Source of the DNA: a virus
DNA length: 64,000 bases
Strand: one strand, 5' to 3'
IMG/VR virus record: IMGVR_UViG_3300035698_012962
Span: 64,001-128,000 of that record
This document shows, piece after piece, positions 13,295 through 63,622 of the stretch (positions are counted from its first letter, which is position 1; the number at the start of each line of letters is the position of its first letter). A program made the position numbers and the translations under genes. Under the pieces are notes generated by a model. It saw only the letters and a program-made list of their open reading frames with translations, did no database searches and was not told the DNA's origin.

Positions 13295-14563
13295 TTAAGA
13301 AGTTTTATTCTGTTTACTTAACATTGTTCTTAATTTAGATTTTATATTTCTAAATTGTGTTTGATTTAATGGGGCAACGGATGTTGGCCCTGAAGGGGTA
13401 GCGTATGATTGTTTAAGAATAGCATCAATCATGTCCGACATCAAATCTAATAAAGTATCACCCAATACCACAGGTTCTAATCCCTTATTACCCAAATTGA
13501 TCTTACCGTTACCAGTATTAAGAAATATGTTTTTATCGTTTGTAATAATATCAATATTATCTTTTACTTCACCAAAAATACCACCTCTTAGATCAAATGA
13601 GAAATTGCTATCACTTATTATCCCTATATTCCCCTTTGAATAGAATAACGTTTCAGCACTTCTAGATGAAAAAATTAATCTACCAGATGAGAGGATAACT
13701 TGATCACCTTTCAGTGTGTTTGGGTAATTTTTAAATGAATTAGGTTTGGTTTTAAAATCACTATTGAAGTTTTTATCAACAGTACCAGGAATAAAATTAA
13801 CAATTCTACTTCCAGATGTTATCCATATAGAAGTACCATCTCTATTCACATCTTCTGTTGTTATATCACCTATTAGCTTATCATTTTTAGAAAGAGAACT
13901 TTCGCTATTTCTAATTAAGATAGATGGATTAAAATCTTTCTTTGATTTTCCACCTTCATACCCATTAAATCTAATTGATTGTCCAAATCGGCTTTCTAAT
14001 AAAACATCTCCTTCGAATAACTCCAATCTATGTATTTTTTCATCACCTTTAAACTTATCACCTAATACATTGTCTTTATTATTTTTTACTGGATTATTTC
14101 TTGGTATACCTGTTTTACTATTTTTTGAGTAAGATGGGATTGGATTTGGGGTAGGTTCATTAAATTCCTTTGCATCCTTTAATGATTCTAAAAGAGTAGA
14201 ATCTGCTGTAACATTTGGAGTATTGTGTGAGAAAATTACTTTATAGTAGAAATCTCCCGATACTTCAATTAATTCAACTATTTCGTTTTTTAAAGGTAGT
14301 CGAATGAAGTTTCTATCATATGGGAATGCAATGTCAAAGTTATTTTCATCAATAACTCCCTGTGATATGTGTGAGAATCGAATTGCTCCAATATAATTTG
14401 TTCCTTTTGGTAAGGTATCATTTTCTACGTCTAAATCTGGGATAATATCATTATACTCATCAATATTTAGAATAATATCGTTTACTACACCTAATTTATT
14501 AGATTTAGAATGAGAAGGAGTTTGGGATAGATTGGTAGATATATTTGAAATACTTTTTATCAT
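13295..14563 (-). CDS. Probable baseplate hub/spike (gp5/gp138-like)
   Basis: LPLKNEIV OB-fold-like segment, EGDVLLESRFGQSIRF, beta-repeat C-half, EPVVLGD and ATPSGPT near the C-terminus. Confidence 0.6.
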   Translation of the reverse strand: MIKSISNISTNLSQTPSHSKSNKLGVVNDIILNIDEYNDIIPDLDVENDTLPKGTNYIGAIRFSHISQGVIDENNFDIAFPYDRNFIRLPLKNEIVELIEVSGDFYYKVIFSHNTPNVTADSTLLESLKDAKEFNEPTPNPIPSYSKNSKTGIPRNNPVKNNKDNVLGDKFKGDEKIHRLELFEGDVLLESRFGQSIRFNGYEGGKSKKDFNPSILIRNSESSLSKNDKLIGDITTEDVNRDGTSIWITSGSRIVNFIPGTVDKNFNSDFKTKPNSFKNYPNTLKGDQVILSSGRLIFSSRSAETLFYSKGNIGIISDSNFSFDLRGGIFGEVKDNIDIITNDKNIFLNTGNGKINLGNKGLEPVVLGDTLLDLMSDMIDAILKQSYATPSGPTSVAPLNQTQFRNIKSKLRTMLSKQNKTS

Positions 14564-14955
14564 TATTCTATTTCAAATTTCTTTTTTAGGGAATTTACTT
14601 CACTTTCAAATACTTCTACTTCATTATTAATTCTTAATTCTTCAACACTATCGAGTAATTGCTTCTTTTCATCTTCTGTTAATATATTACTACCCTCATC
14701 TACCTTATTGGTAACAGATTGAATCTTTTGTGCGATTTGAGCTAATTTGATTAATTGCTCATCGTTTTTTACAGCCTCTTTCATTAAATCACTAATCAAT
14801 GGAAGTAAATTAAGTAAATCTGCTTTCTCTACTATTTTAAGACGTACCTCGTCTATAAAAGAATTGATTTTTATTTTTTTCTGTACTTGGTTAGTGTAAA
14901 TATCTTCGAATAAATCTGATAGTTTTTTTCCCTTAAATAATGTATAATCTTCCAT
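14563..14955 (-). CDS. Hypothetical helical late protein
   Basis: 130 aa; TATTTATA motif at 14976-14983 upstream. Confidence 0.5.
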   Translation of the reverse strand: MEDYTLFKGKKLSDLFEDIYTNQVQKKIKINSFIDEVRLKIVEKADLLNLLPLISDLMKEAVKNDEQLIKLAQIAQKIQSVTNKVDEGSNILTEDEKKQLLDSVEELRINNEVEVFESEVNSLKKKFEIE

Positions 14956-14999
14956 AATATAGTTATCCCTTTAACTATAAATATATAAAGAAATTATTT

Positions 15000-15743
15000 T
15001 CAGTACCAAAACCCGTTTTCTTCTGTATCGCTTATATCACCATTTTCAAAGAAGTCACTCATTATCTGTTGATTATATTCTTTCATTACTTTAATAACCT
15101 TTGTAATGTAGTGAGTTTTAACACCCGTCATTTCTCTGATAAGAAGATATAAATGTTTTTTATTGAAGTTTTCTACATATTTAGATCTTCTTAATAACTC
15201 TAATATAGAATCCGCGATTTGCATATCTCTCTTTTTGATAAAGATTGAGTTTAGATTTGCTTCCCAAAAATCTAATATAATGTGTTTTAGTTCTTGGTAT
15301 TCATCACTTAATTCTTGTTCATCAAAATCATTTTCAATATCCCAATACACCGGCATTTCCGATATATGAGTAAGTTTCTTGACCTTTTTATAGCCCTTCA
15401 TATTACTCATCGTTAAATGATTTCTTGCAATAACCGTGAAGTATGAAAAGGCCTTTCCCTTCCCCTCCTCATACATATGAATTTTTTCAATTAACTGTGA
15501 AACAATTTCTGCTTTACTGTCTTCAACATCCGTTTCTAAATAAGAAGTGGATGACTTGAATGTATGATATGCATTTTCTGCTAATTTTTCAAATGGGTAT
15601 TGAATATACTCATTATATATTTTATTTTTCTTAGCTCTATCATTTGTATTATTATACCGTATTATAGCTTCTTCTGTCTCTTTTGTAAAGTAATTTTTAC
15701 TCTTTTTCTTTTTCGTTTTCGTCATAAATTGTAGTATTTCCAC
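15000..15743 (-). CDS. Late-transcription sigma factor, T4 gp55-like (true start probably Met at 15724)
   Basis: KNYFTKETEEAI...FEKLAEN...KGKAFSYFTVIARN resembles gp55 region 2 (NPFAYFTQI); C-terminal HTH-like segment. Confidence 0.65.
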   Translation of the reverse strand: MEILQFMTKTKKKKSKNYFTKETEEAIIRYNNTNDRAKKNKIYNEYIQYPFEKLAENAYHTFKSSTSYLETDVEDSKAEIVSQLIEKIHMYEEGKGKAFSYFTVIARNHLTMSNMKGYKKVKKLTHISEMPVYWDIENDFDEQELSDEYQELKHIILDFWEANLNSIFIKKRDMQIADSILELLRRSKYVENFNKKHLYLLIREMTGVKTHYITKVIKVMKEYNQQIMSDFFENGDISDTEENGFWY

Positions 15744-15993
15744 TGATTAATTTGTAATAAAATTGAATCATCTCTTTAAGTTGTGTAAAGATAGTTCCAA
15801 CTTCATCGTCTTTTTCAAACATTTGTTGATTATCAATCTCTCGTAAGTCTGATAGTAATTTATTAATTAATACAAAAATTCGAATACGATCTTCTTCGTA
15901 CGTTTCTATTTTCTTTATAGAATTCCAACATGCATATGTTAGTACTAAATTAATTATCATTGAAATGATTAATACGATTACAATTGTTTCCAT
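15697..15993 (-). CDS. Single-TM coiled-coil protein
   Basis: Hydrophobic N-terminus followed by a helical soluble region. Confidence 0.5.
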   Translation of the reverse strand: METIVIVLIISMIINLVLTYACWNSIKKIETYEEDRIRIFVLINKLLSDLREIDNQQMFEKDDEVGTIFTQLKEMIQFYYKLISGNTTIYDENEKEKE

Positions 15994-16002
15994 ATTCTTT
16001 GT

Positions 16003-16557
16003 TTAAAGGTTAAATGAATATCCACTAAAGTTATGTAGATATTCTGTTATTGAGGTTCCATTTCCATCTTGTGATACTTCACCATATTGTAAGTATCTAC
16101 GTGTTCGATATGGTCCCAGTAAATGTGCTGCTGCCAATATTCCGCTTTTTGTTATTTGATTTCCGTTTATAACAGATCCATCATATTGGTAAATGAAATC
16201 TTCTAATATTTCTTTATTATGATTTAAAAGAGTGATCATTACTTCATCTTGCAATAAAGAATTATTAAGGAACTCGTATCGTGTAATATCATAACCTAGT
16301 CGTTTAATTAATGAAAAGGAAAACTGATATTTACCCATATACCCAAATCTATTAATTACATAATGTCTATTATTAGATTCTTTATATGCTATCGCTGTTA
16401 AAAAATCATTTAGACCAGGAGGTGGTGGCAACTCTTTTATTTCATCTATATATACCACTTTAGTTTCAGTTGGTATATAGTGATTAATCTTTTTTAATGA
16501 TATTCCTGATAAATTTGCTATTAAAAATATTAATACAAATGTTATTTTAGTTTTCAT
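16003..16557 (-). CDS. Lysozyme-like / lytic transglycosylase with N-terminal signal anchor
   Basis: AIAYKES (catalytic Glu-Ser), GYMGKYQF, LAAAHLLG motifs. Confidence 0.7.
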   Translation of the reverse strand: MKTKITFVLIFLIANLSGISLKKINHYIPTETKVVYIDEIKELPPPPGLNDFLTAIAYKESNNRHYVINRFGYMGKYQFSFSLIKRLGYDITRYEFLNNSLLQDEVMITLLNHNKEILEDFIYQYDGSVINGNQITKSGILAAAHLLGPYRTRRYLQYGEVSQDGNGTSITEYLHNFSGYSFNL

Positions 16558-17037
16558 TAGTTTTATATTAAGTTAGTATTAGTATAGATTATGCATCTCC
16601 ACCTTCACCCCAGTATAATTCAGAAATTTCAGATGGATCAGCTTTTTTATTTATTGATTTTTTTTCTTTAATCTTTTCAATTCGGTTTTTTAAATTAACA
16701 GAATATTCATCTTTATCAATAATATTATTAATATACAACATATCTAACAAAGAGTCAATTATTGCACCATAAAAAACTAAAGTTGTTTGTAATACTTTAA
16801 TTTGTTTCTCATCCATTTAATAAAAATTTGGTTTTTTCTACAAAATCTTCTTCATCCTCATCATCTCCAAATGATTTTCTTATACTTGAATTTGCATATC
16901 CTACTGAATACGCAAGTCGCATACACATCCTCTTAAATTCTTTTATATCCATATCAATAGGTACTTCAAATTTAATTTTCGTAGCTTCCCTGTTATCATT
17001 AGATTGTACCTCATATGATAGTATACATTTTTCTTCT

Positions 17038-17796
17038 TTATAATAATTCATAATTTCCTGTTTTCATTAGTTTAGTAGCATGTTTGTACTTTATATACAT
17101 CGTCGTATCATCATCCACATTTTTAATCATAACTTTTTCGTTTCTACCATAAGTATTAGTTTTTTCAATTTGTGGATTATAACGTACTAAATCATCTGTG
17201 ATTAACAACCCATCCAAATGCCCAATCTCATGTTGAACTACTACAGATTCAAGTAAACCTTCGTCCTTCAATAATTCATTTCCACCTTGTTTCCATTTAG
17301 TAGAATCTGGGCCGAATTCAATTATACCCAAATTATCTGTTTTAATAGTTATATGAGAAACCCTCATTGTTCGTTTTGGTTTTTTAATTGTCTTTGGTAT
17401 AGATAAGCAAGATTCTACATATACGATTCGCTCTCCAGCAGTATCCGTACTCACATGGCCCCATTTAACAATTGTAGGGTTAATAAGAACCAATGGTTCT
17501 TTTACGTTTACAATACATGCTCTATGTGGAACTCCTATTTGATTTGCTGAAAGACCTAACCCTCCTTCTTTTATTAAAGTAACAAACAACTCTGCAGTTA
17601 CCTTATCCATTTCATCTTTAGTCATTTCCGATTCTTCTACCTTTTGTTTTAGTATAGAAGTATCTGTTGTGATTTGTCTAGGTGTAGTATTTTCTACAAC
17701 TTCTTTTGATAAATACTCTAACCCTTCATTGGCTTGGTTAGGCACATTATCTGATATGTTTATATCTTCATCCATTTCTTGTATTTTATTTTGCAT
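17038..17796 (-). CDS. def: Peptide deformylase
   Basis: GLGLSANQIG, ESCLS and QHEIGHLDG match the three PDF motifs. Confidence 0.9.
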   Translation of the reverse strand: MQNKIQEMDEDINISDNVPNQANEGLEYLSKEVVENTTPRQITTDTSILKQKVEESEMTKDEMDKVTAELFVTLIKEGGLGLSANQIGVPHRACIVNVKEPLVLINPTIVKWGHVSTDTAGERIVYVESCLSIPKTIKKPKRTMRVSHITIKTDNLGIIEFGPDSTKWKQGGNELLKDEGLLESVVVQHEIGHLDGLLITDDLVRYNPQIEKTNTYGRNEKVMIKNVDDDTTMYIKYKHATKLMKTGNYELL

Positions 17797-17801
17797 ATTA
17801 T

Positions 17802-18371
17802 TTATTTTTGATTTAGTGCCTTTGCTATTTTATTTCCTAATTTTTTATATTCATCTGTTTGTTCCAATCCTACTTGTAAATGTCTAAGTGAATTTTTAGA
17901 TGGGTCTATACCTGTTATTTTCGGTGGTAATAATTTCCAAATAAAATCTTTTTGTTCTTGTGTAATTCCATCTTTATTTATCACTTCAGATGCTGTGATA
18001 GGTGGAGTTCGAGGCCAATTCCTCTCCGAGCCAACTCTTAATCTAGCTCTAATTACTTTTTTGTCTTGAAAATAATCATCTGTAGCTTTGTTGAATTCTT
18101 CAATTTCTAATAAGTTTTGTTCTAATATAGTATCTATTAATTTACCAGCTAGTTGTCTTCGTACTTCTTTTAACAATGCTTCTCTTTCATGTGGGTGATG
18201 GTGTGGATGATTCATTGTGTCATCTATAGTTACCTCTGCTACAATTTCGGTTGATTGTGGTTTTGAAGGTGGTTGATAGGTTGGACGATATACACCCTCA
18301 AAATCAGCTATTGATGCGTTGTAATTTTTAATCCACTCTTTATCTATATTGTTAAAATTTAAAAGTGCCAT
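17802..18371 (-). CDS. Hypothetical protein with HPHHHPH tract
   Basis: 189-aa ORF in an operon with thyA and def. Confidence 0.5.
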   Translation of the reverse strand: MALLNFNNIDKEWIKNYNASIADFEGVYRPTYQPPSKPQSTEIVAEVTIDDTMNHPHHHPHEREALLKEVRRQLAGKLIDTILEQNLLEIEEFNKATDDYFQDKKVIRARLRVGSERNWPRTPPITASEVINKDGITQEQKDFIWKLLPPKITGIDPSKNSLRHLQVGLEQTDEYKKLGNKIAKALNQK

Positions 18372-18379
18372 TGTTATAC

Positions 18380-19426
18380 TTAATTACTTAATGGGAATTT
18401 TATTGTAGGGTGTGGATTGTAATTTTCTAATATGAAATCACCTTCTCCACATGAGTGCATTCCATCTCTGATATGAAGTGTGGGAAGTTTTCTGGGTTCT
18501 CTTTCTAATTGTTCCAATACGCCTGAAATTTGATCTTCATAAATATGACAATCTCCAAAATTACCTATTAACATTTCTGGTACCATTCCTACTTCATCTG
18601 CTAACATAAGTAATAATATCCCATAACTAGCAATGTTAAACGGAATCCCCAATGGAAAATCACAAGAACGTTGATTCCATAATAAAGAGATACCCCGTCT
18701 TGGCGCTTCTTTATCTAAATCTACCTCACTCAAATCAATTTCTTCTTTACCAATAGTTCCCAAATCTCCTGTTAGTACTCTTTTTGCAAGATAATCTGCT
18801 CGTTCTTTACGTGTCAATTCTCGTGCCCACACTTGAAACCCATAATGACAAGGTGGAAGAACCATCTGTGATAACTGTTGTGGATTCCAAGCAGTAACCA
18901 TCAATCGTCTACTATCTGGATTTTCCTTTAAATCATTTAACAAGTTTTTTAGTTGGTCAATTCCTGTCCTTGTATATTTAAGTTCACTTGTAATAGAATT
19001 GAATGATTTATGACCATTCCAATGTCTCCATTGGAAACCATATATTTTTCCTAGATCCCATATTGAATCGTGGAATTTCTGGGAACGGTTCTTCTGTGTT
19101 CCCATTTTGATCATTTTTTCTAATGTATAAGGTACAGATGTAGAATTTAAGTAATTCTTGTACCAATCACCATCCCAGATGTGTACCTTGTTTTTCCATA
19201 AATCACGAATATCTGAGGAGCCTGATATAAACCACAATAATTCTTCTTTTACAATTCGGAACGGAACCCTTTTTGTGGTAAGGAGTGGGAATCCTTCTGC
19301 CATATTATGTTTAATCTGTTTACCAAATACAGAAAGTGTATCAACGCCAGTTCGATTTGTTTTCTTAACTCCATTTTCCAGTATCTCATTTAAGATTTCA
19401 AGGTATTGTTTATCTAAATTATTCAT
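18380..19426 (-). CDS. thyA: Thymidylate synthase ThyA
   Basis: NRTGVDT, FPLLTTK, ELLWF, DSRR, LPPCH, QRSCDFPLGIPFN, DCHIY. Confidence 0.97.
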   Translation of the reverse strand: MNNLDKQYLEILNEILENGVKKTNRTGVDTLSVFGKQIKHNMAEGFPLLTTKRVPFRIVKEELLWFISGSSDIRDLWKNKVHIWDGDWYKNYLNSTSVPYTLEKMIKMGTQKNRSQKFHDSIWDLGKIYGFQWRHWNGHKSFNSITSELKYTRTGIDQLKNLLNDLKENPDSRRLMVTAWNPQQLSQMVLPPCHYGFQVWARELTRKERADYLAKRVLTGDLGTIGKEEIDLSEVDLDKEAPRRGISLLWNQRSCDFPLGIPFNIASYGILLLMLADEVGMVPEMLIGNFGDCHIYEDQISGVLEQLEREPRKLPTLHIRDGMHSCGEGDFILENYNPHPTIKFPLSN

Positions 19427-19457
19427 ATATCAAATCGTATTATATTACTAATATAAT

Positions 19458-19486
19458 AATATACAAAAAAATATATAAAATGTCAA
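19458..19486 (-). promoter_or_regulatory. Sigma70-type early promoter for thyA
   Basis: TTGACA-N17-TATATT. Confidence 0.75.
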
Positions 19487-19503
19487 ATTAAATATATAAT
19501 AGT

Positions 19504-20817
19504 TTAATAAATCTTTGAGTCAAAATTATCTGGATATCTAGAGTTAATGCGTTTATCTCTAATGTTTGTAACCCAATAATTTACAGCGGCTTGGTCATCT
19601 TGCCACTGTGAAATGTTTGACCAATCAAAATCATTTCTCGTATAATATGGCTTTTTTGCATCCGCATACCTTCCTTTCATAGAATGTGTTGGTACGTCAA
19701 TTCTACCATCACCATCTGTATCATATCCATCAATTTCTTTTGAATTTTTGTCTATGTGAACGGGTACTCTGCCTATTTTCTTTTCTAAATTTGGAGTTTG
19801 TACAACTTCTTCTTTTACTTCTTCTACATCACTTTCCGGCTGTAGATGAGATTCTTCTATAGGGGGTTCTAATTCTTCTCCAGAATCATCTACTATAGGA
19901 GTACTACTACTATCATCTACTTTTTCATTATCATCCTTTACAACCGATTTTTGTGGTTTGGATTTTCGTTCACCATACACCTCATAGGTATTAGGAGACT
20001 TAACGGTGACCTTCGCATCTTTCTCTAATCTATTATAATAAAGAGATAAGTTAAATGCAATTACCAATGATATCGCCAATGGGTCGAATGTTATCATTAT
20101 AACAATTGCTATAATGTTTACTACTGTTGACATTGGTACATTTAATACATCAGCTAAGAATTGTAAAGGTCCGAGTTCATTTACTACATCGGTTTCGTCT
20201 CTTAGTTCATAAATTCGTTCATCAAAAGTAGTGATTGAATCAGTATATGCATCTATCCTTTCAGTAAGAAGATCTCTTCTTTCTTGAGCATTTTCTAATT
20301 GAGTGGTAAGAACATTACGTGTAGCGGATGAAGTGGTAGTAACTAGTTGTCCTGTTTCTTGATCTATATATTGAATGGTATTACCTGATAATCCTTCAGA
20401 TAATGTTAATATGGTAGATGTTAAATTACCTCTTTCTTCATTAAATGCATCTATTTGTTCATTGAACCTATCTTTTCTCAATTCAATAACTTCTACTCTA
20501 CGATCTAATATATTCAACTCATTCGATGATGACTGGAACGCTGAAGTTAGGTATCCATAAAACCCCATTGAAGTAATACATACTAATATTATTACTGCTA
20601 TAGTTAGATAAGTTTTCATAACAAATTTTACTCTATCCCAATATAAATATAAGAATGAAGCTGTTATGATTTTAGAAAACTCCATAACCCCTGCCATTAC
20701 CATTATTTCAGTTTTAGAACCTGAAAATAGTGCACCTAGCCCCTGTACGGAGAAGTATGCACCAACAATAGCCATAAGTAGTGCGGCTAATCCAATGAGT
20801 AATGTTCTAACGTTCAT
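19504..20817 (-). CDS. Multi-TM coiled-coil membrane protein (DUF4407-like)
   Basis: Three N-terminal TM helices, long coiled coil, ELGPL...FDPLA TM segment, acidic C-terminal tail. Confidence 0.6.
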   Translation of the reverse strand: MNVRTLLIGLAALLMAIVGAYFSVQGLGALFSGSKTEIMVMAGVMEFSKIITASFLYLYWDRVKFVMKTYLTIAVIILVCITSMGFYGYLTSAFQSSSNELNILDRRVEVIELRKDRFNEQIDAFNEERGNLTSTILTLSEGLSGNTIQYIDQETGQLVTTTSSATRNVLTTQLENAQERRDLLTERIDAYTDSITTFDERIYELRDETDVVNELGPLQFLADVLNVPMSTVVNIIAIVIMITFDPLAISLVIAFNLSLYYNRLEKDAKVTVKSPNTYEVYGERKSKPQKSVVKDDNEKVDDSSSTPIVDDSGEELEPPIEESHLQPESDVEEVKEEVVQTPNLEKKIGRVPVHIDKNSKEIDGYDTDGDGRIDVPTHSMKGRYADAKKPYYTRNDFDWSNISQWQDDQAAVNYWVTNIRDKRINSRYPDNFDSKIY

Positions 20818-20827
20818 CTGTTATTAA

Positions 20828-21016
20828 TTATTGAGTTGGTACTATTTCTATAATAGCCTTATTTGAATCTGATAAGTGTTTTACTTCTTTTACTAATTTA
20901 AGTATTTCATCATTTGTTAAAACACGATTTCCTTGTGCTACATCCATAATGATACCTAATCGTTTTTCCATTGCGGAAATATTGTCTAATACTTTTTGTT
21001 GATATGCTAATTTCAT
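20828..21016 (-). CDS. Small hypothetical protein
   Basis: 62 aa; tandem TACTTATA motifs upstream at 21038-21051. Confidence 0.5.
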   Translation of the reverse strand: MKLAYQQKVLDNISAMEKRLGIIMDVAQGNRVLTNDEILKLVKEVKHLSDSNKAIIEIVPTQ

Positions 21017-21059
21017 ATATATTTAGTTTGTTTGATTTATAAGTATAAGTATAGAAAAT

Positions 21060-21097
21060 AAAAAAAATGGTGATAAGGCTATCAACCCTACCACCAT
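21060..21097 (-). terminator. Rho-independent terminator
   Basis: AUGGUGGUAGGG-UUGAUAG-CCUUAUCACCAU forms a 12-bp stem (2 G-U pairs) followed by a U-tract. Confidence 0.85.
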
Positions 21098-21128
21098 ACC
21101 TAACCTAATATTTTAATTTCTACTTATA
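21060..21128 (-). ncRNA. Candidate ~70-nt small RNA with AUUAGGUUA seed
   Basis: Lies between a consensus promoter (21135-21163) and a strong terminator; the seed is complementary to the leader motif UAACCUAAU of several early genes. Confidence 0.5.
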
Positions 21129-21134
21129 ATATAT

Positions 21135-21163
21135 AATATACGAAAAAATATACCAATTGTCAA
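21135..21163 (-). promoter_or_regulatory. Sigma70-type promoter of the candidate sRNA
   Basis: TTGACA-N17-TATATT. Confidence 0.75.
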
Positions 21164-21696
21164 ATTAATATTATATTAATAAATGTTGAAACATCTATAT
21201 CACTTTCTCTATAATAAACCTGTACTTGCATTGTATCACCTCTCATTGCAAATATTGGTGCAATTAATCCTGAAAATTCACCACTATCTTTTGTGATGGA
21301 AACTGGATTAACAGTTGGTACTTCCATACCCTTAAATCCCTGTACATAAATAGTATCCACTGTTACCCAAGTACCTGTTCTACGAATATATCTCCGTACT
21401 TCAATACCAAGAGAATCACCTAATACCCATTTATGTGAAGATTCCCATCCTAATTTTTTTCTTCTATCTATTTGACCACCATCTTTTTCAATCATACCTT
21501 GGACACGATGAATGGTTTGGTTTGAATGTTCATTTAATTGAAGTTCATAGTAACCATTACTATCTTTGTTCAACCTACCGTCTAAATATATTTCATAATC
21601 AGGTAGATATTCTACATTAGATATATCATTGCAATTGGTAAATATAAATAAACTAATTCCTAGCCACATCCATAAATACTTCATACTCCACTCCAT
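21160..21696 (-). CDS. Putative lipoprotein
   Basis: Hydrophobic N-terminus ending FTNC, then a beta-rich domain. Confidence 0.5.
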   Translation of the reverse strand: MEWSMKYLWMWLGISLFIFTNCNDISNVEYLPDYEIYLDGRLNKDSNGYYELQLNEHSNQTIHRVQGMIEKDGGQIDRRKKLGWESSHKWVLGDSLGIEVRRYIRRTGTWVTVDTIYVQGFKGMEVPTVNPVSITKDSGEFSGLIAPIFAMRGDTMQVQVYYRESDIDVSTFINIILI

Positions 21697-21894
21697 TTAT
21701 TATTATCGTTTTGGGGTTAGGTGCTTCCTTTTTCATTTTTAAATCATTATACTCCTCTTCTGTGATCACTCTATATACAATTCTGTTTTCTATAGCACAG
21801 TCGATTACTATTAAATGGTCTTCTGCTAGTTCGTTTATTTCACCAGTATCCCATCTATCGAAAACTTCTTGTTTAAATTCTCTGTATGTTTGTG

Positions 21895-22602
21895 TCATGA
21901 CGCCGAAACTCTATCTGAAGTAATAATTATATCAAAATATCTATCTACTAACATTCTATAATAGGTATCGTTGGGTACTCCATAATTTCCAATTGACCAC
22001 ATATCATTAAACTCCACTACTACGTTTAGCTCATTTCTTAATATACCTACATCAATAATATATGTAGAAGGAAAATCTTTTTTATTTTCTTCTATTATAT
22101 CCTCTATAAATAATCTATGTGGTATCTGAAAAAGATCTCCACTATAATTATGCATATCCTTAATTTTATTTTTATGTACGTACACGCGTACATACGTATC
22201 ATCGGATATATTTGCTATAGAAGAATACACCATCTCATCAATAACAAATCCAGTAAATGATTTCAATTCAGTTGGTAATGGTTTAATAAAATACTTACCA
22301 CCTGCCTTTACTCTATTCTTTACTTCTCCTAATGTTAGAATTTCACTAAATCTATCAGAGTTTCTAGGTAATTGAATACAATCAAGTGTTATTCCAACTC
22401 GTCTAAATACCTCAGTCATAAACTCAACAGAACCTACGAATAAATTATTATCTATTACTAAATCATATTTACCTTCCTTTACTTCATCAAAAGTAACTAA
22501 TTTATATTTTAATACACCACTATCAAACGCTCCATAAAGAGCACTTGCAGCATCAAAGTGATGAGGTAGTATTCCATAATGGGATTTTTGAATAAATATC
22601 AT
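21895..22602 (-). CDS. ATP-grasp protein (R2K/DUF4343-like), possibly internally deleted
   Basis: VGSVEF, YFIKP, KSFTG, IDVG, VVEFND, GNYG motifs. Confidence 0.65.
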   Translation of the reverse strand: MIFIQKSHYGILPHHFDAASALYGAFDSGVLKYKLVTFDEVKEGKYDLVIDNNLFVGSVEFMTEVFRRVGITLDCIQLPRNSDRFSEILTLGEVKNRVKAGGKYFIKPLPTELKSFTGFVIDEMVYSSIANISDDTYVRVYVHKNKIKDMHNYSGDLFQIPHRLFIEDIIEENKKDFPSTYIIDVGILRNELNVVVEFNDMWSIGNYGVPNDTYYRMLVDRYFDIIITSDRVSAS

Positions 22603-22607
22603 ATTTG

Positions 22608-23030
22608 TTAAACTTTAAGTAATGGATCAACTTTCTTTTCTAACTTCTTTAATTCTTCATAAATTTCATTGGTGAAGTATCCATAAATCCGTAACGTTCC
22701 ATATTTCTCTTTTACATCATTAATAAGGATACCTTTTGCAAGTTTTCTATGGAGTTTATGCGCCCACCACCATCTGACCCTTACAATAGAATTATCATTT
22801 CCTACGAGGTGTAGTAATCTTAAAACTGTTTTAGGACACCACTTTGATCTCATTTGGGAATCTACATATTCAAAAAATGTATCTATATACTCATATCCTT
22901 CTGTTCCTTCTCTGAACAGATTGTATCCATATCCCATATATACCCATCTTCTTTGTTTGCCAGGGAAGATTGTATTCCAGAATGTTTTTGGTGTTAATTT
23001 ATTAAAATAATATTTCTTTTTTTTGTTCAT
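22608..23030 (-). CDS. Hypothetical phage protein (KEKYGTLRIY motif)
   Basis: 140-aa ORF with a motif common among phage hypotheticals. Confidence 0.5.
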   Translation of the reverse strand: MNKKKKYYFNKLTPKTFWNTIFPGKQRRWVYMGYGYNLFREGTEGYEYIDTFFEYVDSQMRSKWCPKTVLRLLHLVGNDNSIVRVRWWWAHKLHRKLAKGILINDVKEKYGTLRIYGYFTNEIYEELKKLEKKVDPLLKV

Positions 23031-23034
23031 TTAT

Positions 23035-23420
23035 CTATTGTAATACTCTTCGTAAGGTTTTTAATACGGTATTTAGCTCTTGAAGTTTTCTATAAGAATT
23101 ATATTTCATTTCAAAGAGATTATGGTATTGATCTGAATTCAGAAACTCTAATAATTCTTTACGGGTTTTGATCGTTTGAATTTCTTCTTCAATCTTTCTA
23201 TATTCTTCAAAAAACTTATTAGAATATTCTATTTTTTTCGAGGTATCATATATTAAGAAGCCCGCCATTACCCCGAATAGACTACCCACCGTTAATGCTA
23301 ACAAAAACAGATCCGGATTGTTATAATACATTACACTGAAAAATAGTAAGAAAATAAATAGAAACATATAAATAGATAACTTCGATGGAGAAGTGTTTTC
23401 AATTTTTCTAATAAATTCAT
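23035..23420 (-). pseudogene. Membrane protein gene with a probable 1-nt deletion near the 5' end
   Basis: ATG at 23420 (MNLLEKLK) joins NTSPSKLSIYMFLFIF if one A is restored; span 386 = 3n-1. The downstream ATG at 23367 may rescue it. Confidence 0.45.
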
Positions 23421-23427
23421 ATATTTT

Positions 23428-23649
23428 TTATCTATAAAGGGTTACAAAACTTCCAAAGTATTTATCGAACGTATCTACTAAGTGATCGTAACCACTTTCA
23501 GTCATTTCTTTTTGAACAGTTTCCCAATCTAACTCTAATTGATCAGCAAATCGCTTTGCCTTACCTAAAAGAGAATATGCATTCCCCTCTGGCCCAGTTA
23601 AATCAATTTCAATTCGTCTATTTTCGATTTCTTTTTTTGATTTTATCAT
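23428..23649 (-). CDS. Conserved small phage protein (IDLTGPEGNA motif)
   Basis: 73-aa ORF with a recognisable phage-hypothetical motif. Confidence 0.6.
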   Translation of the reverse strand: MIKSKKEIENRRIEIDLTGPEGNAYSLLGKAKRFADQLELDWETVQKEMTESGYDHLVDTFDKYFGSFVTLYR

Positions 23650-23650
23650 A

Positions 23651-24004
23651 CTAACTCTGATTTTGGGTTTGTTTTTTAATTGCTTCTTCTAACAGTTGTT
23701 TTTTATACATCATAATTCTTGGTCGATTCTTTTTACCTATCGGTCGTTGCCAGTAATCTATTTGTTTTGGGGTTAAAAACCCTCTTTTCATATAAAACTT
23801 TGCCATTGAAGTTCCAATCTCACCATGGGCACCTGTGAATCCAATACCGTTATTTCTGTTAGTGGTTTCGTAGATTTGTTCTTCTCTGGTCTGTCGATTG
23901 AATAAATGAACAAGAGCCTTACCAACTGCGTGAACTCTCATTGGTTCTTTACTCGTCAATACCGCCTCAATTTGTTCAATTAACTTTTTTTTATCAACTT
24001 TCAT
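23651..24004 (-). CDS. Hypothetical early protein
   Basis: RQTREEQ...NGIGFTG motif; first gene after the promoter at 24044-24072. Confidence 0.6.
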   Translation of the reverse strand: MKVDKKKLIEQIEAVLTSKEPMRVHAVGKALVHLFNRQTREEQIYETTNRNNGIGFTGAHGEIGTSMAKFYMKRGFLTPKQIDYWQRPIGKKNRPRIMMYKKQLLEEAIKKQTQNQS

Positions 24005-24008
24005 AATA

Positions 24009-24072
24009 ATTAGGTTAAGTTGTTGTTCTCATTCAACACCAGTAATATAGTGTATAGTATGATAAAAGTCAA
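24009..24072 (-). promoter_or_regulatory. Early promoter with degenerate leader carrying TAACCTAAT
   Basis: TTGACT-N17-TATATT; TAACCTAAT at 24009-24017. Confidence 0.7.
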
Positions 24073-24244
24073 GGATTATTTCACTCTTCGGAAATATTTA
24101 CTAATGACGAGTATACTTCCTCACTCATTTGATTTATTAAATCTGAAATTTCATCTACTGATAGTTTATGATGATTGGATAGAGTTACATCTACCTCGAT
24201 TTCACATTTATCTTCTATATCAAAATTAAATACGTAAGATTGTC

Positions 24245-24561
24245 CTAACATTGCTCTACCACCGTTTCTCCCAGTTTAGTTAATTTTAATGTGTAATGCC
24301 ATGCCATAGTATCAAAATCTAATAGATTTTTATCAAAAAGAGAGTTTGCGGTTAGAAGAGTGCCGTTTTCATTTCTTGCATTGAATCTTGATTCTTCTGG
24401 CATAGTATCCAATTTCGTTTATAATGTTCTGCATACTTTTCAAACGAATATGATCCGTCATCTCTATACTCCAAATATCCTTTTTCTTTAGCTCGTTTTA
24501 ACAGTGATACTTCATCATCTGTTAATTCTAATTCGATAGAAATTGTATGTTTATATTTCAT
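24245..24561 (-). pseudogene. Frameshifted small gene
   Basis: MKYKHT...AEHYK continues as KLDTMPEESRFNARN...AWHYTLKLTKLGETVVEQC in another frame; span 317 = 3n-1. Confidence 0.6.
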
Positions 24562-25571
24562 AATTTTCTAAATTCTGGTCTTATTAAAGCCCAAATTAAT
24601 TGTTTGTAAGATTTCCCATCTAACATTTTGAATAAGATAGCGGGTTTGTTAGTAGAGTTTATTGCATATTCAGCGAATAATTTTCTATCTTCAACAATAT
24701 CCCTTTTTTTTGCTTCTGCGAATAGAGATAAATAGAACTCTTTTGTTTCTAAATACTTCATTTTTAGTTCTTCTTCATATGATCTTATTTTGTCATAGAA
24801 TTCATCTGGAACATCTTCTAATATTTTAGTCATATCATCACCGTTCCGTAATATATCCCATACACCTAATGTAGATATTTCTGTCATAATTTTATGAAGT
24901 CTAAAGTACTCTTCGAATTTTACCTTTATAAAATCACCATTAGAAAATCTAACAACGAATCCTTCTGAATTATCCCACTCTAAATCTTTCAGTTCTTCCA
25001 ATTTTAAGTTAGGATACTCTTTAACTACGTCAAATCCAAATTCTCTGTAGTGTTGAATTTCTTTATACTCACCTGTAGTAAAATTTCGTTTACCTAACAT
25101 AACTAATCGCTCTTCCTCATATAACACCACAATACGATTCTCAGGATATATAATTTCCCACATGTACGTGAAATTTTTATCCAATTTATCTTTATCATAT
25201 CGTTCAATAAGTTCGTATGCCTTCATTGCTTGGTCTGAAATGAAGGAGCCACGTGAAGTAATAATTAATGTATCATTATAGTAAAAGGAAGAAATATAGG
25301 AACCATCTAACTTTTCATATACAGTGTAATCTTCAGTAGGTGTATGCTTATCTTCTTCAAGATTAAAGAATTTATCAAATCCACGAGATACAACATATCC
25401 AGTAGTGTTATCAGTAACCAATCCTCTACAAGCAATTGTTACTTCATCCCAATGTTGTTCGTATGTAGTGGAAAGTGAATAATTCCAAATTGTTAAAGGA
25501 AGAGTCGGATGATCTTGTGAAATTAACCAACCATCAGCTTCGTACAATCGTAATGTTTCTTCGAAATTCAT
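24558..25571 (-). CDS. RNA ligase, T4 Rnl1-like
   Basis: IWNY, CRGLV, FDKFFN, EKLDGS, SRGSF, EII, EGFVV, KVKFEEY. Confidence 0.9.
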   Translation of the reverse strand: MNFEETLRLYEADGWLISQDHPTLPLTIWNYSLSTTYEQHWDEVTIACRGLVTDNTTGYVVSRGFDKFFNLEEDKHTPTEDYTVYEKLDGSYISSFYYNDTLIITSRGSFISDQAMKAYELIERYDKDKLDKNFTYMWEIIYPENRIVVLYEEERLVMLGKRNFTTGEYKEIQHYREFGFDVVKEYPNLKLEELKDLEWDNSEGFVVRFSNGDFIKVKFEEYFRLHKIMTEISTLGVWDILRNGDDMTKILEDVPDEFYDKIRSYEEELKMKYLETKEFYLSLFAEAKKRDIVEDRKLFAEYAINSTNKPAILFKMLDGKSYKQLIWALIRPEFRKL

Positions 25572-25604
25572 TTATTCAATTAAATTAGTAATTATTAATA
25601 CTCT

Positions 25605-25633
25605 ATTATACATAAAGTTTTTATCAAAGTCAA
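25605..25633 (-). promoter_or_regulatory. Early promoter for the RNA ligase
   Basis: TTGACT-N17-TATAAT. Confidence 0.75.
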
Positions 25634-25636
25634 ATA

Positions 25637-26878
25637 CTAATTTTTTAAATCAGAATCATACCGATCTGGGATGTATTCGTTAATAAAATCCCATTCACTG
25701 TTAGAAAGTTTAAAGTACTTCTTTAATTTTCTATCAGACCATTTTTTTGAAAAATCTAAATATGGTACTGCTTTCAATTCACCACTTTCTAAATGTTGAT
25801 TAACTTTAAATAAAGATAAACAAAATCTTGCAAACTTAGTTAATAAATAAGATTTCCCATTTTCTAATTCCTTTTCATTTTTGAACGAAATTTCATTATA
25901 CGGTGTACCCTTTTTATTTTTACCAATTGGGGTTTGAGTTATTCTAGATGATATATCATGTTCGTGCATCTTTCCTAGAAATGTATTAAAATTTGGGTGC
26001 GGGGCTCCGTTATTAGGAATTCCCGTCGCTATTGTATTAACTCGTAGATAAACATTTCCACCCGTTGCGCCATTTCTATATGTATAATCCTCAAGTGATT
26101 GGTTCATCTTTTCAAAAATCTTATCTCTTATTGATAATACTATATCGTTACCATGAATGAATACATTATCAAGTGAATTATATTGAATACTATCATCAGT
26201 ATTGTAATGAGAATATATAACATTTATATTTTTATTCTCTCTTTTTATAACAGTTGTAATAGAAAGAGGTATTTCTTGTTGAACATTAAAGAAAGAGTTA
26301 CCATTTATAATTTTCAGTTCAGTTTCATATGTATTTATAATACTTTGAATCTTTTTTACCCTTCCTTTAAAGTTTAAAGGTTTTCTTGTTATAAACGGTG
26401 TTGCTGGATGTATACATACAATAGTTCCACCTTCTTTTAATAACTCAAATGCGTTATTAAAATGATTCATATGCGAACCATGGGAATATGATGGATTCAT
26501 TACAATTCCAGCGAATTTTATTTTCTTCAATTTGTTAAGGTCTTTACCAAACTTTTTAAAGTCGGCTTTTGTAATATTAACAAACCCCAAATTTATTCCA
26601 AACTTTTCCGATGTTGGTGATATATCGTTTCCGTAGATCATATTATTTATAATATGTTCATGTGAATGATATTTTATCAATTTTCTATAAAGGGCGATGA
26701 GAAACGAACCTGTTCCACTAGTTGGATCTAAAAACTTCGAATCTGGATTTTGAAATAACAATTCATCAAATTTTGAAATCATTTCATTTACTAATTCAAT
26801 AGGTGTAGGTTGTAATGAACCGGCCCGACACATTGAATATTTACTTAGTTGTATTTTTCTCTGTTCTTTTGTAATCAT
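25637..26878 (-). CDS. N6-adenine DNA methyltransferase (Eco57I/type IIG-like) with C-terminal TRD
   Basis: TPIELV, FLDPTSGTGSF (motif I), variant motif IV NPSY, VPYLDFSKKWSDRKL tail. Confidence 0.8.
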   Translation of the reverse strand: MITKEQRKIQLSKYSMCRAGSLQPTPIELVNEMISKFDELLFQNPDSKFLDPTSGTGSFLIALYRKLIKYHSHEHIINNMIYGNDISPTSEKFGINLGFVNITKADFKKFGKDLNKLKKIKFAGIVMNPSYSHGSHMNHFNNAFELLKEGGTIVCIHPATPFITRKPLNFKGRVKKIQSIINTYETELKIINGNSFFNVQQEIPLSITTVIKRENKNINVIYSHYNTDDSIQYNSLDNVFIHGNDIVLSIRDKIFEKMNQSLEDYTYRNGATGGNVYLRVNTIATGIPNNGAPHPNFNTFLGKMHEHDISSRITQTPIGKNKKGTPYNEISFKNEKELENGKSYLLTKFARFCLSLFKVNQHLESGELKAVPYLDFSKKWSDRKLKKYFKLSNSEWDFINEYIPDRYDSDLKN

Positions 26879-34432: not shown

Positions 34433-34489
34433 ATTAGGTTATCATTAACTCAACATTTATAATGTAGTAAGAATTTATATTAATGTCAA
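34433..34489 (-). repeat. Early promoter-leader repeat, copy 1
   Basis: TTGACA-N17-TACATT, then TGAGTTAATGATAACCTAAT. Confidence 0.9.
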
Positions 34490-43750: not shown

Positions 43751-43807
43751 TAGGTTAGTTTAAAATGTTATTAATTATAATGTAAATATAAATTTAACTA
43801 ATGTCAA
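43751..43807 (-). promoter_or_regulatory. Early promoter with TAACCTA in the leader
   Basis: TTGACA-N17-TACATT; TAACCTA at 43751-43757. Confidence 0.7.
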
Positions 43808-50110: not shown

Positions 50111-50468
50111 CTCGTTCTACTACCAATTTAGTCTCAAATGCTGCAGGGAACTCGACAGTAGTTTGATAATCTGTTACTGATTGTTCTATATCTCTATATT
50201 CGTAGTACTCATTAGTTTCATCACTACGAATAATTAATTGATCGTTGTGACCAACAGTTATTTGAAGTCCCATGTCATCCATGAGTTGTTCTAACTTTCT
50301 TACTTTCTGAGTAACTGGGTGTTCTTCTTTTAATTTATAATATGCCATAGAATTATCCCAACCCAGCTATTAATATTCCCACTCCAACCCAAAAAGGAAT
50401 ACCTGTTAAAAATCCTACGATTAAATGTGTTTTATATTTTTTAATATCTTCAAACATAATATTTCAAT

Positions 50469-50528
50469 TTAGGTTAATAGTTTTCTTTATCACTTTTATA
50501 ATGTAATTATAAATTCAATGAATGTCAA
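50469..50528 (-). promoter_or_regulatory. Early promoter with TAACCTAA in the leader
   Basis: TTGACA-N17-TACATT; TAACCTAA at 50469-50476. Confidence 0.7.
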
Positions 50529-50925: not shown

Positions 50926-50988
50926 TTGGATTAGGTTATCATTAACTCAACACTTATAATGTAGTGATTAATTTACTTAATGTCAAGT
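50926..50988 (-). repeat. Early promoter-leader repeat, copy 3 (63 bp identical to 63560-63622)
   Basis: Direct comparison of the two segments. Confidence 0.92.
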
Positions 50989-51402: not shown

Positions 51403-51458
51403 ATTAGGTTATCATTAACTCACTTCTATAATGTAGTTAGAATTTATATTAATGTCAA
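51403..51458 (-). repeat. Early promoter-leader repeat, copy 4
   Basis: TTGACA-N17-TACATT, then TGAGTTAATGATAACCTAAT. Confidence 0.9.
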
Positions 51459-57594: not shown

Positions 57595-57650
57595 ATTAGG
57601 TTATCATTAACTCAATACTATAATGTATTAATAATATTTATCAATGTCAA
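57595..57650 (-). repeat. Early promoter-leader repeat, copy 5
   Basis: TTGACA-N17-TACATT, then TGAGTTAATGATAACCTAAT. Confidence 0.9.
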
Positions 57651-63559: not shown

Positions 63560-63622
63560 TTGGATTAGGTTATCATTAACTCAACACTTATAATGTAGTG
63601 ATTAATTTACTTAATGTCAAGT
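63560..63622 (-). repeat. Early promoter-leader repeat, copy 7
   Basis: Identical to 50926-50988. Confidence 0.92.

What the first reader, a model, noticed from the sequence alone, without database searches (positions are those of the whole stretch)
21060..21163. Candidate phage sRNA antisense to a shared motif in early-gene translation-initiation regions
Seen: a consensus promoter (TTGACA-N17-TATATT, 21135-21163) lies only about 40 nt upstream of a strong terminator hairpin (12-bp stem plus U-tract, 21060-21097), which would give a ~70-nt RNA. Its unpaired 5' part carries AUUAGGUUA (21101-21109) just before the stem. The exact complement, UAACCUAAU, lies 4-10 nt upstream of the AUG in six early leaders (24009, 34433, 50930, 51403, 57595, 63564), with 8-nt and 7-nt matches at 50469 and 43751. 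Established: a seed region followed by a terminator is the usual layout of trans-acting bacterial sRNAs, and pairing near the start codon blocks initiation. Inference: one phage sRNA could switch off a dispersed early regulon as it accumulates, acting as an early-to-late timer. I do not know of this system being described.
Basis: partly seen in the sequence, partly recalled or inferred. Interest (0 to 1): 0.85.

Follow-up and report, generated by a model that had tools for sequence, protein, structure and literature searches.

The report
Orphan promoter-terminator RNA unit in phage
At the boundary between the early and late genes of an uncultured large phage, an early-type promoter fires straight into the genome's strongest terminator and should give a roughly 67-base RNA; its free end matches, as an exact 9-base complement, a motif that sits just before the start codon of many early genes, but a regulatory role is not shown.

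Summary
The window is part of a 136-kb uncultured phage record with all genes on the minus strand. The promoter at 21163-21135 belongs to a family of 16 promoters, all on the coding strand. Fifteen of the 16 are followed by an ORF start within 19-74 nt; this one runs into a hairpin plus U-tract after about 30 nt. That hairpin is the strongest terminator-like element in the record, and the first late-type promoter motif follows it directly, so it marks the early/late boundary. A short RNA of about 67 nt is therefore likely (about 0.65-0.7).

The antisense claim is weaker. The six "leaders" are copies of one promoter-leader cassette, not independent targets. One antisense copy of the 9-mer is what chance predicts genome-wide. 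Its position inside this 31-nt stretch is nominally unlikely (P about 0.0004-0.003). However, predicted duplex energy is matched by 10-13% of random controls. No relatives carry either motif and no RNA data exist.

For the hypothesis: the motif TAACCTAA survives in diverged leaders at a fixed 10-11 nt before the AUG. My odds for the sRNA regulon are about 0.3.

The parts
21158..21163 (-). -35 hexamer TTGACA of the orphan promoter; contains the TGA stop (21162-21160) of the upstream 178-aa ORF
   Evidence: member of the 16-promoter family
21133..21140 (-). -10 region TATATTAT (hexamer TATATT at 21140-21135), the same extended -10 as the thyA promoter at 19486 and two other family members
21098..21128 (-). 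predicted unpaired 5' segment (about 27-31 nt) of the short RNA; the start near 21127 is inferred from -10 spacing, not measured
   Evidence: fold; inference for the start site
21101..21109 (-). ATTAGGTTA, exact complement of the leader motif TAACCTAAT; the only copy on this strand in the 136-kb record
21067..21097 (-). terminator hairpin: 14 pairs (5 G-C, 3 G-U), 3-nt loop, -18.2 kcal/mol; strongest terminator-like element in the record
21060..21066 (-). run of 7 U after the stem
21038..21053 (-). two overlapping copies of the late-type promoter motif TATACTTATA; the first (most upstream) of 13 such motifs on this strand
20828..21016 (-). 62-aa ORF of unknown function, first gene after the terminator and late motif
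21160..21696 (-). 178-aa ORF of unknown function, last gene before the unit
63564..63572 (-). leader motif TAACCTAAT, 10 nt before the ATG at 63553 (canonical cassette)
57595..57603 (-). leader motif TAACCTAAT, 10 nt before the ATG at 57584 (canonical cassette)
51403..51411 (-). leader motif TAACCTAAT, 10 nt before the ATG at 51392 (canonical cassette)
50930..50938 (-). leader motif TAACCTAAT, 10 nt before the ATG at 50919 (canonical cassette)
50468..50476 (-). TAACCTAAA in a diverged leader, 10 nt before the ATG at 50457 (34-aa ORF)
43751..43757 (-). TAACCTA in a diverged leader, 6 nt before the ATG at 43744
34433..34441 (-). leader motif TAACCTAAT, 10 nt before the ATG at 34422 (canonical cassette)
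24009..24017 (-). TAACCTAAT in a diverged leader (promoter TTGACT-N17-TATATT at 24072), 4 nt before the ATG at 24004

Best explanation
The locus is a composite promoter-terminator at the boundary between the early region and the late (baseplate/tail) region of a large uncultured phage.

The hairpin plus U-tract (21097-21060) is the terminator that stops transcription coming from the roughly 15 upstream early promoters. The first late-type promoter motif follows it directly.

The last member of the early promoter family (21163-21135) sits between the stop codon of the last early gene and this terminator. Its own transcripts should therefore mostly end after about 63-69 nt. This resembles the promoter-proximal terminators that give abundant short RNAs in the 5'UTRs of virulent Pseudomonas phages.

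Shown in silico: family membership of the promoter, the uniqueness and strength of the terminator, and the position at the early/late switch. Inferred: that the promoter fires, the start site, and that termination is efficient.

On present evidence, the 9-nt complementarity of the RNA's free 5' part to the early-leader motif is somewhat more likely a coincidence than a regulatory seed. A trans-acting role remains a live possibility (see first rival).
For: Promoter family: the pattern TTGAC[AT]-N16-18-TA[CT]A[TC]TA[TC] occurs 16 times on the coding strand and 0 times on the other. This promoter shares its extended -10 (TATATTAT) and T-rich spacer with the thyA promoter at 19486 and two others.

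Orphan status: 15 of 16 promoters have an ORF start (30 aa or more) 19-74 nt after the -10 region. Here the next such ORF is 116 nt away, beyond the terminator.

Terminator: it has the lowest energy (-18.2 kcal/mol) of the 65 U-run-adjacent hairpins at -9 kcal/mol or lower on both strands. Fold z = -3.26.

Boundary:
- All 13 minus-strand copies of [TA]ATACTTATA lie at or downstream of 21053, and 11 of the 13 have an ORF of 40 aa or more 17-52 nt after them.
- Upstream genes are nucleotide and RNA metabolism. Baseplate genes lie downstream.

Precedent (PMC10914365, section 20 read): 42 terminators lie in phage 5'UTRs just after promoters. phiKZ P112/T102 gives a roughly 71-nt RNA with more than 90% termination, confirmed by northern blot.

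Against a special seed:
- 1 antisense copy seen against 2.4 expected genome-wide, and 21 antisense 9-mers to the leader against 19 expected.
- Median duplex energy of -10.3 kcal/mol is reached by 104 of 1000 shuffles and 384 of 3000 real windows.
Against: - The usual order in phages is terminator then promoter. A promoter placed upstream of the terminator, when the downstream gene has its own late-type motif, has no obvious use except to make the short RNA.
- For a 31-nt stretch, the chance of holding the exact core 9-mer is about 4e-4, and of holding any 9-mer complementary to the invariant 20-nt leader about 3e-3.
- The complementary motif is exactly the part of the leader that survives in diverged leaders, and it keeps a fixed 10-11 nt distance from the AUG in 8 leaders.
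- In co-folds the seed pairing is part of the minimum-energy dimer in 10 of 10 leaders.
- There is no transcript evidence of any kind.
Confidence: 0.5

Rival explanations
1. Trans-acting antisense sRNA. The roughly 67-nt RNA accumulates from an early-family promoter. Through AUUAGGUUA it pairs with UAACCUAA(U/A) at about -19 to -11 of at least 8-10 early mRNAs, inside the 30S binding region of a host that does not use Shine-Dalgarno sequences. It lowers their translation or stability. This would be an RNA counterpart of the T4 RegA/RegB shut-off of early messages.
For: - The exact 9-nt complement lies in the predicted unpaired segment, 3 nt before the terminator stem.
- Nominal P is 4e-4 (core 9-mer) to 3e-3 (any leader 9-mer) for that 31-nt stretch.
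- 10 of 13 sense TAACCTA copies lie 4-11 nt before an ORF start, 8 of them at 10-11 nt. Three of these are leaders that have otherwise diverged (50476, 43757, 24017), and one has no family promoter upstream (record copy 4.8 kb beyond the window's end).
- Module-B initiation regions rank 1, 2, 7, 8 and 10-14 of 178 by duplex energy.
- Co-fold binding energies are -7 to -14 kcal/mol, with the seed paired in 10 of 10.
- No RegA, RegB or Q-type protein was found in the record.
- The genes lack Shine-Dalgarno signals: 24 of 178 against a 14.7% background. An upstream motif could therefore matter for initiation.
- The unit is the only orphan among 16 promoters.
Against: - The targets are one duplicated cassette, so there is effectively one match, not six.
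- The duplex is short (9 bp, 2 G-C), and its energy is not better than 10-13% of random controls.
- Non-motif initiation regions score as well: 16557 at -12.9, 23367 at -12.8, 21696 at -12.0 kcal/mol.
- The whole 20-mer leader is invariant, not only the 9 nt, so other constraints act on it.
- An RNA made from an early-type promoter would be present from the start, which fits a damper better than a timer.
- There is no conservation, co-variation or expression evidence.
- A fixed distance to the AUG is not required for an sRNA target. It suggests the motif has a role of its own in cis.
Confidence: 0.3
2. Terminator only. The hairpin ends early transcription, and the promoter-like sequence is inactive or too weak to matter, so no meaningful RNA is made.
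For: - In this AT-rich DNA, generic sigma-70-like matches are at chance level: 97 found against 98.6 expected in 14000-30000.
- The host is unknown. If it is a Bacteroidota member, it would use different promoter rules (recalled knowledge).
- No RNA data exist.
Against: The specific family pattern is far from chance: 16 on the coding strand, 0 on the other, all intergenic. This site matches it fully, including the extended -10 it shares with the thyA promoter.
Confidence: 0.1
3. DNA-level operator. TAACCTAAT is a protein-binding site placed downstream of early promoters. The copy after the orphan promoter is the same site in inverted orientation, so the 'antisense' relation is a by-product.
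For: - The motif lies 18-26 nt after the -10 hexamer in the leaders and 25 nt after it in the orphan unit.
- It accompanies 10 of 16 family promoters.
Against: - Distance to the promoter varies, while distance to the AUG is fixed: 10-11 nt in 8 cases.
- One copy has no family promoter upstream.
- The site is not palindromic.
- Five family promoters lack it.
Confidence: 0.07
4. Small membrane peptide. The ATG at 21097, which lies 35 nt after the -10 region (the usual leader length in this family), opens a 24-codon hydrophobic ORF ending at 21023.
For: - The leader length of 35 nt equals that of the canonical cassettes, which are 35-36 nt.
- Read directly from the sequence, the frame is open for 24 codons and is rich in Leu, Ile and Phe.
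Against: - The ATG is the first triplet of a 14-bp stem.
- The ORF runs through the U-tract and the late promoter motif, so a terminated transcript would have no stop codon.
- T-rich terminators give hydrophobic reading frames by composition alone.
- It is too short for a homology test.
Confidence: 0.03

Closest known systems
Promoter-proximal (5'UTR) terminators giving short RNAs in virulent Pseudomonas phages, e.g. phiKZ P112/T102, about 71 nt (PMC10914365, section 20 read)
   Same: A phage promoter followed almost at once by an intrinsic terminator upstream of a gene. The expected product is a short structured RNA of about 70 nt, and function is unknown.
   Different: In those phages the RNAs were mapped and confirmed by northern blot, and they are conserved within genera. 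Here nothing is measured and no relatives were found. Here the downstream gene also has its own late-type promoter motif, and the terminator doubles as the end of the whole early region.
c4 antisense RNA of phages P1/P7 (review PMC12197685, passages read)
   Same: A small phage RNA that pairs through short complementary stretches with the ribosome-binding region of a phage mRNA made elsewhere on the genome and blocks translation.
   Different: c4 acts on one operon (ant) in a temperate phage's immunity circuit and presents its pairing bases in structured loops. The unit here would act on 8-10 dispersed early leaders through a linear 5' seed in what looks like a virulent phage.
T4 RegB endoribonuclease and RegA translational repressor (review PMC3014915, passages read)
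   Same: A short motif shared by the translation-initiation regions of many early mRNAs is the handle by which the phage shuts them off.
   Different: Those effectors are proteins, and RegB's motif is the Shine-Dalgarno GGAG. No RegA or RegB homologue is found in this record, and the genes have no Shine-Dalgarno signal.
PeSL composite promoter/stem-loop cassettes of T4-type phages (PMC2839356, passages read; PMC4122927, abstract read)
   Same: [quoted passage not shown] Promoter and terminator lie in one intergenic space.
   Different: In PeSLs the stem-loop is part of each cassette and usually lies between or over the promoter boxes, so the cassette's own transcripts escape it. Here 15 of 16 cassettes have no stem-loop. 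The one that has it carries it about 30 nt after the start site, so its own transcripts should be terminated.
Lambda oop RNA and the PR'-6S-tR' unit (recalled, no paper read)
   Same: A short promoter-to-terminator unit in a phage that gives an RNA of about 77-194 nt. For PR' it is placed just before the late genes.
   Different: oop is cis-antisense to cII. PR'/tR' depends on the Q antiterminator, and no Q-type protein is found here. The late genes here have their own motif.

Membership tests
Trans-encoded base-pairing sRNA | Own promoter | tested here: met
   In silico only. It matches the phage's promoter family in full: 16 on the coding strand, 0 on the other.
Trans-encoded base-pairing sRNA | Intrinsic terminator that forms the 3' end | tested here: met
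   In silico only. 14-bp stem, 7 U, -18.2 kcal/mol, the strongest in the record.
Trans-encoded base-pairing sRNA | Discrete short RNA detected | not testable with these tools
   No RNA run is listed as holding the locus.
Trans-encoded base-pairing sRNA | Accessible seed complementary to target initiation regions beyond background | tested here: inconclusive
   The exact 9-mer has nominal P of 4e-4 to 3e-3, and the seed is paired in 10 of 10 co-folds. However, duplex energy is reached by 104 of 1000 shuffles and 384 of 3000 real windows.
Trans-encoded base-pairing sRNA | Conservation or co-variation of seed and target in relatives | not testable with these tools
   No relative with either motif was found. 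A strain-level contig is identical over 20000-21278.
Trans-encoded base-pairing sRNA | Regulatory effect on targets | not testable with these tools
   Needs reporter assays with compensatory mutations.
Promoter-proximal terminator / 5'UTR-derived short RNA (phiKZ type) | Terminator immediately downstream of a promoter, upstream of a gene on the same strand | tested here: met
   The stem begins about 30 nt after the inferred start, and the 62-aa ORF starts 43 nt after the U-tract.
Promoter-proximal terminator / 5'UTR-derived short RNA (phiKZ type) | Short and read-through isoforms with the same 5' end | not testable with these tools
   No RNA data.
PeSL cassette | [quoted passage not shown] | tested here: met
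   16 family promoters. Several copies are identical over about 65 nt, including the leader.
PeSL cassette | Stem-loop terminator as a regular part of the cassette, placed at or before the start site | tested here: not met
   Only this one of the 16 has a strong hairpin nearby, and it lies after the inferred start site.
Lambda-type Q antitermination unit | Q-family antiterminator encoded by the phage | tested here: not met
   No match to PF03589 or PF06530 at E <= 1 in the record, which is only 63% complete.
T4 RegA/RegB early shut-off | RegA or RegB homologue | tested here: not met
   No match to PF01818 or PF10715 at E <= 1 in the record, which is 63% complete.
Known RNA families (Rfam 15) | Match at or near a family's gathering score | tested here: not met
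   The only matches are two chance-level snoRNA hits (E 1.8 and 2.3) elsewhere in 20700-21500.

The most novel reading that the evidence does not exclude
A large virulent phage of a host that does not use Shine-Dalgarno sequences places a 9-nt element, UAACCUAA(U/A), exactly 10-11 nt before the start codon of its early genes. It also encodes, at the early/late boundary, a roughly 67-nt RNA whose free 5' end is the exact complement of that element. The RNA would mask the element on 8-10 dispersed early mRNAs and so damp or end early protein synthesis. This would be an RNA-only counterpart of the T4 RegA/RegB shut-off, and a phage sRNA with a regulon of the phage's own genes.
Probability: 0.28. 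Interest if true: 0.8.

Novelty: new member of a known kind. Interest (0 to 1): 0.5.

Why it matters
Short RNAs made by promoter-proximal termination are now seen in many virulent phages, but almost none has a known function. This one comes with a concrete, falsifiable target prediction. If it held, it would show that a lytic phage can time or damp a whole class of its own early genes with one small RNA, in a host group where translation starts without a Shine-Dalgarno sequence. It would also give a function to the conserved element at -19 to -11 of these leaders.

If the complementarity is a coincidence, the locus is still a clean marker of the early/late transcription boundary and of three regulatory motifs in an uncultured phage lineage: the early promoter family, the leader modules and the late motif.

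Tried and rejected
**Relatives**
- Megablast of 19000-24000 against 50,697 phage records: no match.
- The 178-aa neighbour in IMG/VR: none.
- The 437-aa neighbour in IMG/VR and in JGI metagenomes: a single 47%-identity relative (L001/L053). It has no comparable intergenic unit and no repeated leader.
- Exact 15-mer of the leader in IMG/VR: 51 loci. 50 are chance contexts. One (L013) has a similarly built promoter and leader start but lacks the 9-mer.
- Hairpin 24-mer: 0 hits.
- Seed-plus-stem 16-mer: 3 chance hits.
- DNA-ligase relatives at 48-53% identity (L054-L060) carry none of the motifs in leader positions.

**Expression:** no RNA holder listed.

**Strain variation:** contigs of four DNA runs were laid on 20000-36000. 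One contig covers 20000-21278 with 0 differences, so this gives no information on constraint.

**Ribosomal RNA pairing of the leader motif:** in six Flavobacteriaceae 16S genes taken from 13 genomes searched, the longest complement to the motif is 6-7 nt, and 7 nt occurs in only 1 of 6. The host is unknown, so this is weak evidence.

**Host:**
- The thyA-like gene's best cellular-collection hit is a 44-kb contig of a Flavobacteriaceae MAG. That contig shares no other protein with this phage.
- That MAG has no 16S match and no family-promoter match.

**Other checks**
- Lambda-type antitermination and T4 RegA/RegB: no protein-family matches.
- Rfam: nothing.
- PHROGs and Pfam give no function for the ORFs directly beside the unit or for the target genes tested.
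- The 24-codon ORF reading is rejected as unlikely (see rivals).
- I did not use structure prediction, complex prediction, the protein atlas or the large protein searches. They would not bear on an RNA question.
- Supplementary tables of PMC10914365 (the lists of 5'UTR RNAs) were not seen.
- Literature searches for a phage sRNA that controls a set of its own early genes in trans listed none. That covers only the held library.

Full report
**Setting.** The window is bases 64001-128000 of a 136,266-bp IMG/VR virus record estimated 63% complete. It is 31% G+C, and essentially all genes lie on the minus strand. Upstream of the finding (higher coordinates) lie small genes of unknown function and nucleotide/RNA-metabolism genes:
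- two RNA ligases, a DNA ligase, a Thg1-like enzyme, QueC and a helicase.

Downstream lie thymidylate synthase, a deformylase-like protein and then baseplate genes. The genes carry no Shine-Dalgarno signal. SD-like tetramers occur at -20 to -4 in 24 of 178 ORFs, against 14.7% of random windows, and the upstream regions are A-rich and G-poor. This is the pattern known for Bacteroidota (recalled knowledge). The host is not identified.

**The observation.**
- The stem has 14 pairs, not 12, including 3 G-U pairs, and is followed by 7 U.
- The 71-nt stretch 21128-21058 folds as a 31-nt unpaired 5' part plus the hairpin: -18.2 kcal/mol, z = -3.26, with 1 of 200 shuffles as good.
- TAACCTAAT occurs 7 times in the window against 1.36 expected, and 0 of 100 shuffles reach 7. 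That is six sense copies and one antisense copy.

**What the leaders are.** The sense copies are part of a repeated promoter-leader cassette: cTTGACAtta, about 14 nt, TACATTATA, about 8 nt, then an invariant 20-mer GAGTTAATGATAACCTAATC. The first 19 nt of that 20-mer occur 6 times exactly in the record, all on the minus strand.

The leader has two separable parts.
- The 5' part (GAGTTAATGATAAC) is kept in two copies that have lost the 9-mer (promoters at 59173 and 34786).
- The part TAACCTA(A) is kept in three leaders that have otherwise diverged (50476, 43757, 24017), and in one copy without a family promoter, 4.8 kb beyond the window's end.

Of 13 sense TAACCTA copies in the record, 10 lie 4-11 nt before an ORF start: 8 at 10-11 nt and 2 at 4 nt after the 9-mer position. 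The distance to the -10 hexamer varies from 18 to at least 26 nt. The 10-nt spacers differ in sequence but not in length. So the motif is real and is tied to the start codon rather than to the promoter. However, the 'six leaders' are one family, not six independent hits.

**What the candidate unit is.**
- The relaxed family pattern TTGAC[AT]-N16-18-TA[CT]A[TC]TA[TC] occurs 16 times on the minus strand and never on the plus strand.
- The site at 21163 is a full member. It shares the TATATTAT -10 and a T-rich spacer with the thyA promoter (19486) and two others.
- In 15 of 16 cases an ORF of 30 aa or more starts 19-74 nt after the -10 region. Only here does the transcript meet a terminator first, with the next ORF 116 nt away.
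- My scan of every run of five or more T on both strands of the record found 65 hairpins at -9 kcal/mol or lower. This one is the strongest.
- Directly after it come two overlapping copies of TATACTTATA. [TA]ATACTTATA occurs 13 times on the minus strand, all at or downstream of 21053. Eleven have an ORF of 40 aa or more 17-52 nt further on. Only 2 copies are on the plus strand. I read this as the late promoter motif (inference).

So the hairpin sits exactly where early transcription should stop and late transcription begin. That alone explains its presence. The family promoter 30 nt upstream of it should then give a roughly 63-69-nt RNA. Such promoter-proximal terminators and their short RNAs have been mapped in virulent Pseudomonas phages, for example phiKZ P112/T102 (about 71 nt, more than 90% terminated, northern-confirmed; PMC10914365, section 20 read). 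Repeated early promoter/terminator cassettes (PeSLs) are known in T4-type phages (PMC2839356 passages; PMC4122927 abstract). There, however, the stem-loop lies at or before the start site.

**Is the complementarity more than chance?**

Genome-wide it is not.
- ATTAGGTTA occurs once on the transcribed strand against 2.4 expected.
- There are 21 places with 9-nt complementarity to the invariant leader against 19 expected.

What is unusual is the place. For one given 31-nt stretch, the chance of holding the core 9-mer is about 4e-4, any leader 9-mer 3e-3, and any 8-mer 1.3e-2. These figures are post hoc.

Energetically the match is not special.
- The median duplex energy of the 31-nt segment with eight module-B initiation regions is -10.3 kcal/mol. 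It is reached by 104 of 1000 dinucleotide shuffles and by 384 of 3000 real 31-nt windows.
- Among 178 initiation regions the module-B ones rank 1, 2, 7, 8 and 10-14, but unrelated ones (16557, 23367, 21696) score as well.
- Co-folding the 69-nt RNA with ten leaders keeps the seed duplex in all ten, with binding energies of -7 to -14 kcal/mol. So pairing is feasible but not selective.

**Evidence I could not get.**
- No relative carries either motif.
- The only syntenic relative (47% identity in the 437-aa protein) has no comparable unit.
- No RNA run holds the locus.
- A near-identical strain contig shows no differences over 20000-21278.
- No RegA, RegB or Q-type proteins are found in the incomplete record. 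This neither supports nor excludes a protein effector of unknown family.
- Six Flavobacteriaceae 16S genes hold no conserved complement to the motif.

**Verdict.** I put about 0.65-0.7 on a discrete short RNA being made. I put about 0.3 on it acting through the 9-nt seed on the early leaders, about 0.07 on a DNA-level operator reading, about 0.1 on an inactive promoter, and about 0.03 on the 24-codon ORF. The physical unit is a new member of a known kind (a promoter-proximal short RNA). The regulon idea is the novel reading. It is testable and has a precise prediction, but it rests on one 9-nt match.

The closest mechanistic precedents are:
- the c4 RNA of P1/P7 (PMC12197685 passages), for an RNA acting in trans on a phage ribosome-binding region;
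- T4 RegB/RegA (PMC3014915 passages), for shut-off of many early messages through a shared initiation-region motif.

My literature searches listed no phage sRNA that controls a set of its own early genes in trans. That covers only the held library.

Noticed in passing
window 19486, 21163, 24072, 34489, 34786, 43807, 50528, 50986, 51458, 54873, 57650, 59173, 63620 (minus strand); three more in the record outside the window: A family of 16 promoters, TTGAC[AT]-N16-18-TA[CT]A[TC]TA[TC], all on the coding strand and none on the other. There are two subtypes, TACATTATA and TATATTAT. Several cassettes are identical over about 65 nt, reminiscent of the PeSL cassettes of T4-type phages but without stem-loops.
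   Followed up: yes
window 21053, 21047, 1674 and ten more copies in the record to the left of the window (minus strand): Late-type motif [TA]ATACTTATA: 13 copies on the coding strand and 2 on the other. Eleven are followed within 17-52 nt by an ORF start. This is probably the late promoter of this phage lineage.
   Followed up: partly
L013 (= G001, fetched whole as L061+L062), minus strand at record positions 22187, 21942, 20713, 20001, 18486: A phage contig sharing only two weak protein matches with this phage (26.6 kb, 37% G+C) carries five promoters of the same build. Its leader start is the same (GTGAGTT.ATGATAA.C; one copy is identical over 15 nt), but it continues into a GGAG Shine-Dalgarno and lacks TAACCTAAT. 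The 5' leader module is therefore shared across phages and is separable from the 9-mer.
   Followed up: partly
whole record; window genes generally: There is no Shine-Dalgarno enrichment before start codons (24 of 178 against a 14.7% background). Upstream regions are A-rich and G-poor. This suggests a Bacteroidota-like host. The most similar cultured-phage proteins found were from Flavobacterium phages (33% identity).
   Followed up: partly
window 16567-16575 (minus strand), initiation region of the baseplate-hub-like gene 16003-16557: TAACTTAAT, a one-base variant of the leader motif that still pairs with the candidate RNA through a G-U pair. Its flanks extend the duplex to about 12-13 pairs (-12.9 kcal/mol), as good as the early leaders.
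   Followed up: no
window 29309-29840: One contig of a lake-water run joins 29309 to 29840, skipping 530 nt inside the Thg1-like (tRNA-His guanylyltransferase) gene 29164-29952. A population variant therefore lacks most of that gene.
   Followed up: no
window 24558-25571, 29164-29952, 40385-41497, 48982-49716, 52329-53411: A rich RNA repair/modification gene set: two RNA ligases (RnlA-like and another), a Thg1-like enzyme, QueC and a phosphoesterase. This suggests tRNA repair or counter-defence functions.
   Followed up: no
window 21023-21097 (minus strand): A 24-codon hydrophobic ORF starts at the first base of the terminator stem, 35 nt after the -10 region (the usual leader length of the family). 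It is probably a compositional artefact of the T-rich terminator.
   Followed up: partly
G002 contig C39 (L112-L114): A 44-kb contig binned in a Flavobacteriaceae MAG encodes a long thymidylate synthase 42-51% identical to the phage's. The MAG also has its own shorter thyA elsewhere. The contig shares no other protein with this phage.
   Followed up: partly
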